Assembly (NCBI RefSeq): GCF_016903815.1
Contig: NZ_CP069973.1
Source of the DNA: Escherichia coli
Lineage (GTDB): Bacteria > Pseudomonadota > Gammaproteobacteria > Enterobacterales > Enterobacteriaceae
Length of the DNA stretch: 64,000 bases
Reading direction: 5' to 3' (one strand)
In this document: piece by piece, positions 30,428-32,298 of the stretch
Layout: every line of letters starts with the position of its first letter
How positions within the stretch are numbered: the stretch's first letter is position 1
Position numbers and translations under genes: made by a program
Notes under the pieces: generated by a model
The model's database searches: none
What the model was told of the DNA's origin: nothing
The model's input: only the letters and a program-made list of their open reading frames with translations

Positions 30428-30481
30428 GCCATACAGAAAGCACCAGCATTCAGAACTCCTGTGAAAGCGGCATAGTGCCGC
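30428..30481. repeat. 54-bp repeat copy A with perfect internal palindrome (bidirectional terminator-like hairpin)
   Basis: gccatacagaaagcaccagcattcagaactcctgtgaaagcggcatagtgccgc; near-identical copy at 32245-32298; palindrome aactcctgtgaaagcggca-tag-tgccgctttcacaggagtt. Confidence 0.8.
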
Positions 30482-30492
30482 TTTCACAGGAG

Positions 30493-31413
30493 TTACCTTC
30501 CCGCTCTCCAGGCCACATCCCGCAGCGCCGATCGCGCAGCCTCACTGATACCACCTAACTGAAAAAATCCGTGGATAACGCCAAGGTAGCGTTGGCAGGT
30601 GCATTGCACTCCTTGCCCTGTCATGCGGTGATACAACGCTTCACCTTCATCGCAAAGTGGGTCGTATTCAGCGGTAATGATATGTACAGGTGGCAAGCCA
30701 TTGAAATCATCGCGCCAAAGAGGGCTGGCTTCAGGATGCCTGCGTTCAATGCCTGGCAGATACATCTCAAAGCCGCTCAGTAAAGTGTCGCGTGTGATGA
30801 TGTAATCGTGACCATTGCGTATGTAGCTTTCGAAATGCGCAGTCGCATCAAGCATGGGATAAATTAAGATGAGTTGTGCCGGTTGCCACTCGCCAGCACG
30901 CTTTAATCGCAAAGCAGTTACCAGCGCCAGATGTCCGCCCGCACTGTCACCGGCAAGAGTTATCCGTTGTTTATCAACGCCGAGTCGTTCGGCGTGTTGC
31001 CAGACTAATTCTGCACCTCGTTGCGCATCATCATGGGCGGCGGGGAAAGTCTGTTCCGGTGCCAGCCGATACTGGACGGCAATAACCCGACATTGCCCGT
31101 AATAGGCTAACTGGCGCAGCTGGTTGTCGTGAGTTGCGAACCCGCCGCTAACAAAACAGCCACCGTAGTAATAAATTATCGTCGGGAGTAATGTCGGGGC
31201 ATTCAGCGGTGACACTATTCGTAAGATCATCCCTTCAAGTTCGATAGTCTGAATATCTACCCGCGTTTCTGTCTCACCCGCAAGGACAGCGCTGGCGATA
31301 TAGCCCTCCCTGCGCTGCGCAATACTTTGTTGACGCGATGAGGGGCGACCCGCAGCGATAAACTCTTCGACTAACTCTGCAATTCCTTTTTCCAGTGCCA
31401 TAGTAGAACTCAT
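30493..31413 (-). CDS. Alpha/beta-hydrolase esterase/lipase, hormone-sensitive-lipase (Aes-like) family
   Basis: GDSAGG nucleophile elbow, oxyanion-hole-like YGGCF (HGG-type) motif, C-terminal His (GVIHGF); start uncertain (ATG 31413 or 31401, GTG 31476). Confidence 0.8.
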   Translation of the reverse strand: MSSTMALEKGIAELVEEFIAAGRPSSRQQSIAQRREGYIASAVLAGETETRVDIQTIELEGMILRIVSPLNAPTLLPTIIYYYGGCFVSGGFATHDNQLRQLAYYGQCRVIAVQYRLAPEQTFPAAHDDAQRGAELVWQHAERLGVDKQRITLAGDSAGGHLALVTALRLKRAGEWQPAQLILIYPMLDATAHFESYIRNGHDYIITRDTLLSGFEMYLPGIERRHPEASPLWRDDFNGLPPVHIITAEYDPLCDEGEALYHRMTGQGVQCTCQRYLGVIHGFFQLGGISEAARSALRDVAWRAGR

Positions 31414-31629
31414 TTTGCTGTATGAATGTACAGTTTTATACACCCGTTTTTGCTGGATGGATACAGGGAAATTCACGGGCGTGAAAAATCTGGAAAGCGC
31501 CTCGCAAATGTAAAGACAAACCCGGCAGAGACGTGGTTTTGCTGGAGCACTATCAGTAAGCTAGTGGTTTCAAGGGTACGTCAATGACGTACAAAAAGGA
31601 TTGTTACTCTAAGCCAATGGCGTATAATT

Positions 31630-31941
31630 ATGCTCTTCATCGAAACGGAAATTTTTACTGAAGATGTTCAAAAACTGCTGACCGACGATGAATTCAGTCG
31701 TTTTCAGTTTTTCCTGGCCTTGAATCCTGACTATGGTGAGGTAATACCTGAAACTGGTGGGTTAAGAAAGGTTCGATGGGTGTCAGGAGGAAAGGGGAAA
31801 CGTGCTGGTGTCAGGGTTATTTACTTTCATCAGGTTAAACATTATGAGATCAGATTACTGCTTATTTATCGTAAGGGTATTAAAGATGATCTGTCTCCCC
31901 AGGAAAAAGCAATGCTCCGGTTGTTAAATACGAGGTGGTAA
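31630..31941 (+). CDS. Type II toxin, Gp49/HigB-2-like (RelE/ParE superfamily)
   Basis: 103 aa; motif GGKGKRAGVRVIYFH...IRLLLIYRKGIKDDLSPQEKA typical of Gp49-like toxins; toxin-first gene order; stop abuts antitoxin ATG. Confidence 0.8.
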   Translation: MLFIETEIFTEDVQKLLTDDEFSRFQFFLALNPDYGEVIPETGGLRKVRWVSGGKGKRAGVRVIYFHQVKHYEIRLLLIYRKGIKDDLSPQEKAMLRLLNTRW

Positions 31942-32232
31942 ATGGATAAGGCACTTTTTGAGCGGTTGACTCACAGCATGGCCCAGATGAATGAAATTAT
32001 TGAAGGAACGCGACACCCTTCACGGACTTTTGAAGTTGATGCTATGAAAATCAAAGAAATACGCCGCGCTTCAGGGTTGTCACAATCTAAATTTGCCGAA
32101 CTTATTTCCGTAAGCGTAGACACGTTGCGTAACTGGGAGCAGGGGCGACGTTCACCGACTGGGCCTGCAAAGGCTTTGCTGCGAGCGATTGCCAATGATC
32201 CGCAACATGTGCTGCAGGCACTTAACCGTTAG
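31942..32232 (+). CDS. HTH-XRE antitoxin (HigA-2-like)
   Basis: 96 aa; IKEIRRASGLSQSKFAELISVSVDTLRNWEQGRRSPTGPA helix-turn-helix; immediately follows toxin. Confidence 0.8.
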   Translation: MDKALFERLTHSMAQMNEIIEGTRHPSRTFEVDAMKIKEIRRASGLSQSKFAELISVSVDTLRNWEQGRRSPTGPAKALLRAIANDPQHVLQALNR

Positions 32233-32244
32233 AGGCATGGTTAT

Positions 32245-32298
32245 GCCATACAGAAAGCACCAGCATTCAGAACTCCTATGAAAGCGGCATAGTGCCGC
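32245..32298. repeat. 54-bp repeat copy B (degenerate palindrome)
   Basis: gccatacagaaagcaccagcattcagaactcctatgaaagcggcatagtgccgc; one mismatch to copy A within the 54 bp; right arm of hairpin diverged. Confidence 0.8.

What the first reader, a model, noticed from the sequence alone, without database searches (positions are those of the whole stretch)
30428..32298. 54-bp direct repeats with internal palindrome bracket the esterase plus toxin-antitoxin module
Two near-identical 54 bp copies (30428-30481 and 32245-32298) lie ~1.8 kb apart in the same orientation, flanking exactly the esterase and the TA pair. Copy A contains a perfect 19-bp-stem palindrome (aactcctgtgaaagcggca / tgccgctttcacaggagtt) positioned as a bidirectional terminator between the convergent phosphatase and esterase genes. 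Copy B has a mutated right arm and overlaps the RBS of the downstream small ORF. This is not REP/ERIC-like sequence. It could be a recombination scar, a cassette boundary (attC-like or MITE-like), or a duplicated terminator that mediated modular insertion of the esterase-TA unit.
Basis: seen in the sequence. Interest (0 to 1): 0.6.

Follow-up and report, generated by a model that had tools for sequence, protein, structure and literature searches.

The report
Recombination scar with self-perfected palindrome
The two repeats are not ends of a mobile element: they are two copies of the tail of an antitoxin gene plus its downstream hairpin, placed on one E. coli chromosome when two alternative versions of a variable locus were joined, and one copy later became a perfect palindrome.

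Summary
The repeat is longer than reported: 98 nt (30397-30494 and 32214-32311, 88% identical), with the reported 54-nt core differing at 1 base.

It is not a dispersed element. It occurs in 3365 of 5426 complete E. coli genomes, at most twice per genome and only at the fabY-yiiE locus. It is absent from real plasmids, phages and other species.

- **Copy B** is the native sequence: the last 19 nt of the antitoxin gene nadS (including its stop codon), a hairpin, and the ribosome-binding site of a small ORF.
- **Copy A** is a decayed relic of the same sequence, left behind when a 617-aa gene replaced esterase-toxin-nadS in an old alternative allele.
- **The esterase-TA unit is the ancestral resident.** It is syntenic in Salmonella, Citrobacter and Kluyvera.
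- **The window carries both alleles stacked** (329 genomes), joined at a 4-nt microhomology (AGTT) on the esterase stop codon.
- **Copy A's perfect palindrome is the derived state** (120 genomes). A 5-nt cluster, TGCT to TTTCA, is exactly templated by the other arm, which is the signature of a quasipalindrome template switch.

Neither strand has a U-tract after copy A, so the terminator role is unsupported. This is an ordinary scar of low interest. The neighbouring 617-aa gene has a SopB-like phosphoinositide phosphatase fold.

The parts
28471..30324 (+). 617-aa ORF (604 aa from the ATG at 28510). It is the gene block of the alternative 'type II' allele and lies upstream of copy A. It has a predicted SopB/SidF-like CX5R phosphoinositide phosphatase fold.
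   Evidence: The ORF is listed. It has no Pfam, NCBIfam, PHROG or PDB-sequence hit. C499, D504 and R505 are invariant in alignment A4. The AlphaFold2 model has pLDDT 85.7. The best fold match is SopB 8jzl_A, E = 8e-7.
30356..30427 (+). Decayed relic of the 3' end of an antitoxin (nadS) gene, directly after the 617-aa gene. Its last 31 nt (30397-30427) form the diverged left part of copy A.
   Evidence: Over 30397-30427 versus 32214-32244, 23 of 31 positions match in one register. Divergent contigs L024 and L025 carry a clearer nadS 3' fragment at the same place after the 617-aa orthologue, 92% identical over 37 nt to window 32163-32199.
30397..30494 (+). Copy A of the 98-nt direct repeat (54-nt core at 30428-30481).
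30454..30494 (.). Perfect palindrome: 19-nt arms and a TAG loop.
   Evidence: inverted repeat I2. Folds give RNA -36 kcal/mol and DNA -24.1 kcal/mol.
30482..30486 (+). TTTCA, the converted tract. All other alleles have (C)TGCT or a variant here. The change makes the right arm the exact complement of TGAAA in the left arm.
   Evidence: Alignments A1 and A2.
30491..30494 (.). AGTT, the junction microhomology where the end of the repeat meets the esterase stop codon. This is the novel joint of the stacked 'type III' allele.
   Evidence: Three sequences were compared. Type I reads ...CCGAAGTT|ACCTTCCC. Type II reads ...CAGGAGTT|TTGTTATG. The window reads ...CAGGAGTT|ACCTTCCC.
30493..31401 (-). Esterase: an alpha/beta hydrolase of the hormone-sensitive-lipase type.
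   Evidence: NCBIfam LipP1 scores 7e-70, below its curated cut-off. RefSeq annotates the same 909-nt CDS. Orthologues at 73-75% identity lie at the same locus in three other genera.
31601..31628 (+). Promoter-like site (TTGTTA, 16-nt spacer, TATAAT) just upstream of the toxin start codon.
   Evidence: This is a consensus match only.
31630..31941 (+). Putative toxin, 103 aa.
   Evidence: The Pfam RelE match is weak, E = 0.006. It matches phrog_5869 at 6e-27. Some RefSeq records name it a RelE/ParE family toxin.
31942..32232 (+). nadS, an XRE-type helix-turn-helix antitoxin of 96 aa.
   Evidence: NCBIfam NadS equivalog scores 60.4 bits against a cut-off of 60. Homologues are 95-96 aa in many Enterobacteriaceae.
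32214..32311 (+). Copy B of the repeat, in its native position. It comprises the last 19 nt of nadS including the stop codon (32214-32232), a spacer, an imperfect hairpin (32271-32311) followed by TTTT, and the AGGAG Shine-Dalgarno sequence (32305-32309) of the next ORF inside the descending arm.
   Evidence: The same arrangement is seen in type I genomes such as IAI1.
32317..32529 (+). Small ORF1 (70 aa), whose ribosome-binding site lies in copy B.
   Evidence: It matches phrog_4499 at 8e-14. RefSeq annotates it as a hypothetical protein.
32591..32869 (+). Small ORF2 (92 aa). In type I-a and type II alleles, ORF1 and ORF2 are fused by an internal deletion.

Best explanation
The repeats are a recombination scar. 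The fabY-yiiE locus of Escherichia exists in alternative alleles.

- **Type I** (ancestral gene order, as in other Enterobacteriaceae): fabY, a palindromic spacer, esterase, toxin, nadS, then a hairpin that leads into small ORFs.
- **Type II** (an old alternative): a block carrying a 617-aa SopB-like phosphatase gene replaced the esterase, the toxin and most of nadS. Only the nadS tail and the downstream hairpin remain.
- **Type III** (the window): the left part of a type II allele, ending at the last base of the hairpin, was joined to the esterase stop codon of a type I allele by illegitimate recombination at a 4-nt microhomology (AGTT). The same nadS-tail-plus-hairpin sequence therefore occurs twice, once as the decayed relic (copy A) and once in its native place (copy B).

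Later, in one sublineage of type III, the imperfect palindrome of copy A was made perfect in a single templated event. The change is TGCT to TTTCA, copied from the opposite arm. This is a quasipalindrome template-switch mutation during replication.

The repeats have no dedicated function as element ends. They can serve as short homology for RecA-type exchange, and mosaic copy A sequences show that this happens.

**Shown:** the locus restriction, the allele structures and counts, the ancestry of the esterase-TA unit, the relic nature of copy A, the junction sequence, and the derived state of the perfect palindrome.

**Inferred:** the order of events, the illegitimate-recombination mechanism, and the single-step template switch.
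For: 1. **Locus restriction.** The 98-mer occurs in 3365 of 5426 complete E. coli genomes, with 1 or 2 places per genome. The only 'plasmid' hits are records of 1.0-4.9 Mb, sizes that indicate chromosomal sequence filed as plasmids. There are no phage or viral-contig hits. Among 100,044 species representatives, the core 23-mer hits only E. coli, one E. coli-like contaminant contig and one chance 23-nt match. No Rfam family matches.
2. **Allele counts.** The type I junction is in 2308 genomes. The type III junction is in 329. The 617-gene flank plus copy A left half is in 1062, which gives about 733 type II genomes. About 2061 genomes have no repeat and are K-12-like deletions.
3. **The esterase-TA unit is ancestral.** Salmonella, Citrobacter and Kluyvera have fabY, esterase, toxin, nadS and fdhE in the same order. 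Amino-acid identities are 73-75% for the esterase, 70-71% for the toxin and 86-88% for NadS.
4. **Copy A is a nadS relic.** In 30397-30427, 23 of 31 positions match the nadS tail. In divergent contigs L024 and L025, the 74%-identical 617-aa orthologue is followed by a clearer nadS 3' fragment and the left part of the core. The 617-gene/nadS-relic junction is therefore old.
5. **Type II is not a recent excision of type III.** The synthetic precise-deletion product of the window allele is found in none of 5426 genomes. All type II genomes carry the ORF1-ORF2 deletion typical of type I-a.
6. **Type III has a recent single origin on its right side.** The esterase-TA unit is 99.2-100% identical among the six type III genomes read, compared with 98.5-98.8% to type I. 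The 617-gene side differs by 1-4% and is mosaic.
7. **The junction.** It reads GGAGTT|ACCTTCCC. AGTT is shared by the end of the type II hairpin and by the type I sequence next to the esterase stop codon.
8. **The perfect palindrome is derived.** Every B copy read, every type II copy read and the type III copies of C1, MSB1_7A, PRO_A, SB0258h1, 1190 and CP52E have an imperfect arm. Only the 120-genome class has TTTCA. Strain 1190 and ETEC6334 differ by just 2 other SNPs in the 200 nt around the arm. The mechanism is described in E. coli in PMC7202029.
9. **Exchange between the copies.** Copy A of CP52E carries a B-type patch, GGTTAT.
Against: - The order of events is inferred from parsimony on a handful of sequences that were read plus collection-wide counts. 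No phylogeny was built.
- The nadS relic in copy A differs from nadS by about 26%, while the adjoining core differs by only 2-5%. I attribute this to recombination homogenising the shared flank up to the edge of allelic homology. That was not tested.
- The left flank of type III is diverse. This needs either repeated recombination with crossovers in or near the 98-nt repeat, or several independent origins of an identical junction.
- No genome has the window's exact flanks with an imperfect arm, so the immediate ancestor of the conversion is not sampled.
- Selection for a stronger hairpin, acting through stepwise substitutions, cannot be formally excluded.
Confidence: 0.72

Rival explanations
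1. In-situ tandem duplication. A type I chromosome duplicated the esterase-toxin-nadS-hairpin unit head to tail, which creates the same hairpin-end to esterase-stop joint. The 617-gene block then replaced most of the first copy. Type II arose later by homologous deletion between the two repeats.
For: - A tandem duplication would give exactly the observed novel joint, the end of the unit next to the start of the unit.
- Type II has a single repeat whose left flank is A-like and whose right flank is B-like, as a crossover between the repeats would produce.
Against: - It needs one more event than the allele-stacking route.
- None of 5426 genomes has the deletion product with the intact ORF1 found downstream in type III.
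- Type II-like structure (617 gene, nadS relic, core, no esterase-TA) already exists in a lineage about 8% diverged in fabY and fdhE. In contrast, the esterase-TA unit of type III is almost clonal, with 0-0.8% differences.
- No genome has more than 2 copies of the repeat.
Confidence: 0.13
2. The repeats are the ends or recombination sites of a mobile cassette (integron attC-like, MITE-like or hairpin-recognising transposase) that moves the esterase-TA unit.
For: - The repeats bracket the unit exactly.
- They contain a hairpin.
- The joint falls at the last base of the stem.
- Filled and empty alleles both exist.
Against: - The repeat is at one locus only, with at most 2 copies per genome.
- It is not on real plasmids, phages or viral contigs, nor in other species.
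- The bracketed genes are the ancestral residents of this locus in other genera.
- No integrase or transposase ORF lies in 28000-35000. The RefSeq label 'transposase' is attached to the C-terminal half of the SopB-like phosphatase gene.
- The hairpin ends (TCAGAAC and GTTACCT or GTTTTAC) do not fit the attC core-site consensus RYYYAAC and GTTRRRY. That consensus is quoted from memory.
Confidence: 0.02
3. The hairpin is a selected functional RNA or DNA element: a terminator, an insulator between the convergent 617-aa and esterase genes, or a 3' mRNA stabiliser. On this view the perfect palindrome was fixed because it works better. This concerns function and is compatible with the scar origin.
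For: - The structure is very stable (-36 kcal/mol on the + strand, -40.6 on the - strand, z about -7 to -8).
- It sits exactly between convergent genes.
- Type I alleles have a different perfect 15-bp-stem palindrome at the equivalent place between fabY and the esterase.
- In its native context the hairpin is followed by UUUU, and its descending arm holds the Shine-Dalgarno sequence of ORF1.
Against: - No U-tract follows copy A on either strand. The + strand continues ACCUUCCCG and the - strand continues CUGAAUGCU.
- The terminator scan calls neither copy.
- The right arm varies freely among alleles, with no compensatory changes.
- 209 of the 329 type III genomes keep the imperfect form.
Confidence: 0.13

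Closest known systems
Quasipalindrome-associated template-switch mutation (Ripley 1982; E. coli thyA hotspot, Dutra and Lovett 2006; reviewed in Klaric et al. 2020, PMC7202029)
   Same: An imperfect inverted repeat becomes perfect through a tight cluster of changes, at least 2 substitutions plus a 1-nt insertion within 5 nt. Every change is the exact complement of the other arm.
   Different: Here it is a natural polymorphism carried by a 120-genome class of E. coli, not a reporter or selected mutation. The single-step nature and the dependence on replication are inferred, not measured.
Illegitimate recombination at short microhomology combined with a homologous crossover on the other side (homology-facilitated illegitimate recombination, de Vries and Wackernagel 2002; quoted from memory)
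   Same: There is one novel joint at a 4-nt microhomology (AGTT). Everything outside it is homologous to pre-existing alleles.
   Different: The event was not observed. Donor and recipient are unknown. The joint lies exactly at the base of a hairpin, which could reflect structure-induced breakage rather than plain microhomology.
Toxin-antitoxin 'genomic islets' at variable loci of E. coli (relE-1/yiaG-1, TA27, between yiiD and fdhE; PMC7232551)
   Same: It is the same TA pair at the same variable locus. The absence of the pair from K-12 is noted in that paper.
   Different: That paper treats such TA islets as possibly mobile. Here the esterase-TA unit is syntenic across genera and therefore ancestral, K-12 is a deletion, and the repeats are not mentioned in the passage I read.
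REP/BIME, ERIC and MITE dispersed palindromic repeats
   Same: It is a short intergenic palindromic sequence between convergent genes.
   Different: It is not dispersed. There are at most 2 copies, at one locus, in one species.
Integron attC sites and gene cassettes
   Same: An imperfect palindrome lies at the 3' end of a gene unit, and filled and empty alleles exist.
   Different: There is no integrase and no array. The core sites do not fit the consensus. The unit has a single chromosomal location, and the bracketed genes are ancestral.
Bidirectional intrinsic terminators between convergent genes
   Same: A stable hairpin sits between convergent ORFs.
   Different: It lacks the flanking A-tract and U-tract in copy A.

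Membership tests
Dispersed palindromic repeats (REP/BIME, ERIC, MITE) | Many copies scattered over a genome | tested here: not met
   There are 2 copies in the 64-kb window, with 0 expected by chance. The 3365 E. coli genomes that carry it have 1-2 places each, all at the fabY-yiiE locus.
Dispersed palindromic repeats (REP/BIME, ERIC, MITE) | MITE: a short non-autonomous element with terminal inverted repeats and a target-site duplication | tested here: not met
   The two copies are direct repeats 1817 nt apart. They enclose three genes that are ancestral at this locus.
Integron gene cassette / attC | Integron integrase, attI or a cassette array nearby | tested here: not met
   The ORFs and RefSeq annotation of 28000-35200 show none. 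The 'transposase' label there belongs to the phosphatase-fold gene.
Integron gene cassette / attC | Core sites RYYYAAC and GTTRRRY at the ends of the palindrome (consensus quoted from memory) | tested here: not met
   Read from the sequence: the left end is TCAGAAC, and the right end is GTTACCT in copy A and GTTTTAC in copy B.
Integron gene cassette / attC | The same cassette found in different genomic contexts or on mobile elements | tested here: not met
   It is found only at this locus. There are no real plasmid, phage or viral-contig hits.
Intrinsic (Rho-independent) terminator, bidirectional | Stable G+C-containing hairpin | tested here: met
   Copy A folds at -36 kcal/mol on the + strand and -40.6 on the - strand. 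Copy B folds at -22.5 kcal/mol.
Intrinsic (Rho-independent) terminator, bidirectional | U-rich tract directly 3' of the stem on the transcribed strand or strands | tested here: not met
   Copy A is followed by ACCUUCCCG on the + strand and CUGAAUGCU on the - strand. It is not called by the terminator scan. Copy B and the type II copies are followed by UUUU(A/G), which is marginal.
Intrinsic (Rho-independent) terminator, bidirectional | Transcript 3' ends map to the hairpin | not testable with these tools
   This needs Term-seq or 3'-RACE.
Quasipalindrome template-switch mutation | A pre-existing imperfect inverted repeat at the site | tested here: met
   The imperfect arm (8-bp and 6-bp stems around a 5x4 or 5x5 internal loop) is present in every other allele read.
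Quasipalindrome template-switch mutation | A clustered multi-base change that equals the complement of the opposite arm and raises complementarity | tested here: met
   TGCT changes to TTTCA at 30482-30486, the exact complement of TGAAA at 30462-30466. Only 2 other SNPs occur in the surrounding 200 nt between strain 1190 and ETEC6334.
Quasipalindrome template-switch mutation | A single event, with no stepwise intermediates | tested here: inconclusive
   No partial forms were seen among the type III haplotypes read. The counts show two junction identity classes, 120 at 100% and the rest at about 97.5%. Not every one of the 329 genomes was read.
Deletion or insertion by homologous recombination between direct repeats | An allele with one hybrid repeat that lacks exactly the intervening segment | tested here: met
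   O157:H7, CB6886 and XJ6-3 have an A-like left flank, a single repeat and a B-like right flank.
Deletion or insertion by homologous recombination between direct repeats | The empty allele's flanks are otherwise identical to the filled allele, as expected for a recent excision | tested here: not met
   No genome of 5426 covers at least 80% of the synthetic deletion product. All single-copy alleles have the ORF1-ORF2 deletion downstream.
Type II toxin-antitoxin pair (RelE/HigB-like toxin with NadS/XRE antitoxin) | Adjacent small toxin and helix-turn-helix antitoxin genes with family matches | tested here: met
   NadS equivalog scores 60.4 bits against a cut-off of 60. The toxin has only a weak Pfam RelE match (E = 0.006) and matches phrog_5869. 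The genes abut: toxin 31630-31941, nadS 31942-32232. Toxicity was not tested.

The most novel reading that the evidence does not exclude
The hairpin is a structure-specific fragile site that repeatedly seeds rearrangements at this locus. Breakage at the base of the stem would allow gene blocks (esterase-TA, the SopB-like phosphatase block, the small ORFs) to be shuffled in and out without any recombinase, and the identical GGAGTT|ACC joint on diverse left flanks would reflect recurrent rather than single origin. A weaker version is that the perfected palindrome was selected as an insulator between convergent genes.
Probability: 0.06. Interest if true: 0.55.

Novelty: new member of a known kind. 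Interest (0 to 1): 0.24.

Why it matters
The result removes a candidate 'new cassette boundary'. It shows how such repeats can arise with no mobile element, when two alternative alleles of a hypervariable locus are stacked on one chromosome.

It also gives a clean natural example of a quasipalindrome being perfected by a templated mutation in a large E. coli lineage. This could serve as a marker and as a test case for template-switch mutagenesis outside reporter genes.

It corrects the idea that the esterase-TA unit is an inserted islet. The unit is ancestral, and K-12 and O157:H7 have lost it in different ways.

The by-product may matter more than the repeat. The neighbouring gene, unannotated or mis-annotated as 'transposase', has a SopB/SidF-like phosphoinositide phosphatase fold and lies in about a fifth of E. 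coli genomes.

Tried and rejected
1. **Ex-coding core.** The nadS reading frame stays open through the core up to the TAG in the hairpin loop, and in copy A the nadS stop position reads GAG. I tested whether NadS homologues carry such a C-terminal extension. None of 3088 hits does; all are 95-96 aa. Rejected.
2. **Known RNA family.** An Rfam scan of 28000-35200 at E <= 1 gave only a spurious lncRNA hit elsewhere.
3. **Core conserved as the nadS/fdhE terminator in other genera.** Salmonella, Citrobacter and Kluyvera each have a different short hairpin in a 44-nt spacer. The core therefore belongs to an Escherichia-specific segment.
4. **Plasmid copies.** The two 'plasmid' places in the E. coli collection and the four PLSDB hits are records of 1.0-4.9 Mb, too large to be ordinary plasmids.
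5. **Hits in Micromonospora and a Chloroflexi MAG.** The first is an E. coli-like low-coverage contig. The second is a bare 23-nt chance match inside unrelated sequence.
6. **Direct ancestor of the conversion.** I searched for the window's flanks with an imperfect arm and found none at 100%. The nearest is strain 1190.
7. **Sequence-based identity of the 617-aa protein.** Pfam, NCBIfam, PHROGs and PDB sequences all gave nothing. Only the fold search was informative.
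Full report
**1. The observation**

They differ at one base, and shuffles of the window gave 0 matches.

The repeat finder extends them to 98 nt: 30397-30494 versus 32214-32311, 88% identical, 1817 nt apart. A register scan shows identity dropping to background on both sides.

Copy A contains a perfect palindrome with 19-nt arms and a TAG loop (30454-30494). 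As RNA it folds at -36 kcal/mol on the + strand and -40.6 on the - strand. Copy B folds at -22.5 kcal/mol, with an internal loop.

The last two bases of copy A overlap the esterase stop codon (30493-30495). Copy B begins 19 nt before the end of the antitoxin gene nadS, whose stop codon is at 32230-32232.

**2. Where this is**

The window is E. coli. The region is the variable islet between fabY (yiiD) and yiiE/yiiF/fdhE.

Comparison with complete genomes shows four main arrangements.

| Type | Example | Arrangement |
|---|---|---|
| I | IAI1 | fabY, a short spacer with its own 15-bp-stem palindrome, esterase (-), toxin, nadS, one copy of the repeat, small ORFs (intact or fused), yiiE |
| II | O157:H7, CB6886, XJ6-3 | fabY, about 400 nt, the 617-aa gene, one copy of the repeat, fused small ORFs, yiiE. 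It lacks exactly the 1817-bp esterase-TA unit |
| III | the window | Both the 617-aa block and the esterase-TA unit, hence two repeats |
| IV | K-12 | A deletion from inside the 5' end of the 617-aa gene to the end of the small ORFs, with no repeat |

**3. It is not a dispersed or mobile element**

- The 98-mer is in 3365 of 5426 complete E. coli genomes, with at most two places per genome and a median of one.
- The esterase-TA unit with both repeats hits no phage.
- Among 'plasmids' it hits only four records of 1.0-4.9 Mb, too large to be ordinary plasmids.
- A 23-nt core pattern finds nothing in 2.9 million viral contigs.
- In one genome per 100,044 species, the pattern finds only E. coli, a 445-nt E. 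coli-like contaminant contig and one bare chance match.
- No Rfam family matches.

REP, ERIC, MITE and attC readings are therefore rejected. One caveat applies: an exact 23-mer cannot see diverged copies in sister species.

**4. Counts**

| Feature | Genomes |
|---|---|
| Type I junction (fabY-spacer-esterase) | 2308 |
| Type III junction (copy A next to the esterase stop codon) | 329 |
| Type III at >=99% to the window's 98-mer (perfect palindrome) | 120 |
| 617-gene flank plus left half of copy A | 1062 |
| Type II (1062 minus 329) | about 733 |
| No repeat | about 2061 |

**5. The esterase-TA unit is ancestral, not inserted**

NadS homologues at 85-88% identity occur in Salmonella, Citrobacter, Kluyvera, Enterobacter and others.

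In Salmonella, Citrobacter and Kluyvera the locus is fabY, optional extra TA genes, esterase (-), toxin, nadS, fdhE (-). Amino-acid identities to the window are 73-75% for the esterase, 70-71% for the toxin and 86-88% for NadS.

In those genera nadS is followed within 44 nt by fdhE, and each genus has a different short hairpin in that spacer. The repeat core therefore belongs to an Escherichia-specific segment (core, ORF1, ORF2, yiiE, yiiF) that lies between nadS and fdhE.

**6. What copy A is**

Its left 31 nt match the nadS tail at 23 of 31 positions in one register, while the 54-nt core matches at 53 of 54.

The 617-aa protein is essentially confined to Escherichia and Shigella. There is one divergent cluster at 74% identity. 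The contigs that encode it come from an Escherichia-like organism whose fabY and fdhE are about 92% identical to the window.

In those contigs the 617-aa gene is followed, after the same ATCAGAATTC, by a much clearer nadS 3' fragment. That fragment is 92% identical over 37 nt to window 32163-32199 (the blastn match) and is followed by the left half of the core.

Copy A is therefore a decayed relic of nadS plus its downstream sequence. It dates from an old event in which the 617-aa block replaced the esterase, the toxin and the 5' part of nadS.

The sharp change in divergence at about 30428 fits a boundary of allelic homology. To the right of it, type I and type II alleles can recombine and stay similar. 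To the left, the relic is private to the type II and III alleles. This last point is inference.

**7. How the two copies came to share a chromosome**

Type III differs from type II plus type I by a single new joint.

- Type II reads ...CAGGAGTT|TTGTTATG.
- Type I reads ...CCGAAGTT|ACCTTCCC, where TTA is the esterase stop codon on the other strand.
- The window reads ...CAGGAGTT|ACCTTCCC.

The shared AGTT is a 4-nt microhomology, which is typical of illegitimate recombination.

The predicted product of a precise deletion between the window's repeats is found in none of 5426 genomes. All type II genomes carry the ORF1-ORF2 fusion typical of type I-a.

Among the type III genomes read, the esterase-TA unit is 99.2-100% identical, compared with 98.5-98.8% to type I. 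The 617-gene side differs by 1-4% and is mosaic, with the last left-side polymorphism at 30410, inside copy A.

I conclude that type III is a recent stacking of a type II left part onto a type I right part, and that its left side has since recombined with the diverse type II pool.

The alternative route is in-situ tandem duplication, then replacement, then deletion to give type II. It needs more events and fits the old age of type II poorly. It is not excluded.

A possible reason why no recent deletions are seen is that losing a TA pair is counter-selected. This is inference from the known stabilising effect of TA modules and was not tested.

**8. The perfect palindrome is the derived state**

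Every B copy read, every type II copy read and the copy A of six type III genomes (C1, MSB1_7A, PRO_A, SB0258h1, 1190, CP52E) have an imperfect right arm: GCCGC-TGCT-CAGGAGTT or a variant. Only the window class and ETEC6334 have GCCGC-TTTCA-CAGGAGTT.

The change needs at least two substitutions and one inserted base within 5 nt. Every new base is the complement of TGAAA in the left arm.

Strain 1190 (imperfect) and ETEC6334 (perfect) differ at only two other sites in the surrounding 200 nt. By my rough estimate, three or more changes falling in one given 5-nt window at that background rate, all matching the opposite arm, has a probability of about 1e-7.

This is the signature of a quasipalindrome template-switch mutation, a mechanism established in E. 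coli (PMC7202029). No genome with the window's exact flanks and an imperfect arm was found.

The perfect form occurs on at least two left flanks (the window and ETEC6334), so it has been present long enough to recombine. CP52E has a B-type patch (GGTTAT) inside copy A, which shows sequence exchange between the two kinds of copy.

**9. Function**

In its native place (copy B, and the single copies of types I and II) the hairpin lies about 40 nt after the nadS stop codon. It is followed by UUUU(A/G), and its descending arm holds the AGGAG Shine-Dalgarno sequence of ORF1. It is a plausible weak terminator of the TA operon that also occludes the ORF1 ribosome-binding site. This is inferred from sequence only.

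Copy A lost the U-run at the joint. The + strand continues ACCUUCCCG and the - strand continues CUGAAUGCU. The terminator scan calls neither copy, so a canonical bidirectional terminator is not supported.

A role as a 3' stabiliser or as a barrier between the convergent genes cannot be excluded. Type I alleles have a different perfect palindrome at the equivalent position.

The right arm varies among alleles without compensatory change, so there is no covariation support for a conserved RNA structure.

**10. Comparison with what is known, and verdict**

The closest known processes are these:

- illegitimate recombination at microhomology that joins alternative alleles;
- homologous exchange at short repeats;
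- quasipalindrome template switching.

The variable TA locus between yiiD and fdhE has been noted before (PMC7232551). There it was discussed in terms of islets that might themselves be mobile.

The finding is real, but it is an ordinary scar. It is a new example of known kinds of event and of low interest.

**11. By-product**

The 617-aa ORF is labelled 'hypothetical' or, for its C-terminal half, 'transposase' in RefSeq. It has no sequence-family match.

It belongs to a rare family with an invariant CX5R motif, GCKSAKDR. A confident model (pLDDT 85.7, pTM 0.86) best matches Salmonella SopB and the Legionella phosphoinositide phosphatases of PDB entries 4jza and 4fyg (which I recall as SidP and SidF).

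Noticed in passing
window 28471-30324 (+): The 617-aa ORF (604 aa from the ATG at 28510) has no Pfam, NCBIfam, PHROG or PDB-sequence match, and RefSeq labels it hypothetical or 'transposase'. It has an invariant CX5R motif (GCKSAKDR) across 17 remote homologues. A confident AlphaFold2 model best matches Salmonella SopB (8jzl_A, E = 8e-7) and the Legionella phosphoinositide phosphatases of PDB entries 4jza and 4fyg (which I recall as SidP and SidF). It is present in about 1062 of 5426 E. coli genomes, split by a frameshift in O157:H7 and intact in the window. It evolves fast: 78% nucleotide identity in a lineage whose flanking genes are 92% identical.
   Followed up: partly
L002 (IAI1) 611-643, between fabY and the esterase: Type I alleles have their own perfect palindrome here, CTGAAAAGGTTTTCA-ATC-TGAAAACCTTTTCAG (15-nt arms), flanked by A- and T-runs. 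It looks like a bidirectional terminator. The window allele lost it when the 617-aa block came in.
   Followed up: partly
window 32317-32869: ORF1 (70 aa, Cys-rich) matches phage family phrog_4499 of unknown function (8e-14). ORF2 (92 aa) matches nothing. In type I-a and all type II alleles, an internal deletion of about 330 nt fuses the start of ORF1 to the end of ORF2.
   Followed up: partly
L003 (K-12 DH1) 955-1071, corresponding to window 28471 to about 32840: K-12 keeps only the first roughly 39 codons of the 617-aa gene. One deletion removes the rest of that gene, both repeats, the esterase, the TA pair and the small ORFs. About 2061 of 5426 genomes lack the repeat altogether.
   Followed up: partly
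L023 (strain CP52E) 2258-2355 and 4075-4231: This is a type III variant. Copy A carries a B-type patch (GGTTAT instead of GGCGAA), and the region downstream of copy B is the fused-ORF form. It shows gene conversion or recombination between the two kinds of copy.
   Followed up: partly
L014-L017 (Salmonella, Citrobacter), between fabY and the esterase: The same fabY-esterase spacer holds other TA genes in other genera: HigB with an HTH antitoxin in Salmonella and one Citrobacter, and a ParD antitoxin in another Citrobacter. This intergenic site appears to be a recurrent insertion point across Enterobacteriaceae.
   Followed up: no
window 33149-33227 and 33588-33666: A 79-nt direct repeat (81% identical, 439 nt apart) lies upstream of the paralogous ribbon-helix-helix genes yiiE and yiiF, probably as duplicated promoter or leader regions. 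A related 27-nt motif (ATCTGGAAAGCGCCTCGCAAATGTAAA) also lies at 31488-31514, between the esterase and the toxin (families D2-D4).
   Followed up: no
L012 (NZ_POTY01000570.1, filed as Micromonospora craterilacus): This 445-nt contig with coverage 0.76 is E. coli type I-a sequence (repeat core plus fused small ORFs). It is contamination in a species-representative assembly.
   Followed up: yes
L024 3443-4288 and L006 4600-5448: A DUF6708 gene and small membrane-protein ORFs occupy the region between the repeat and yiiF in some E. coli (WP3-S18-ESBL-08) and in the divergent Escherichia-like contigs. This is a further alternative block at the same islet.
   Followed up: no
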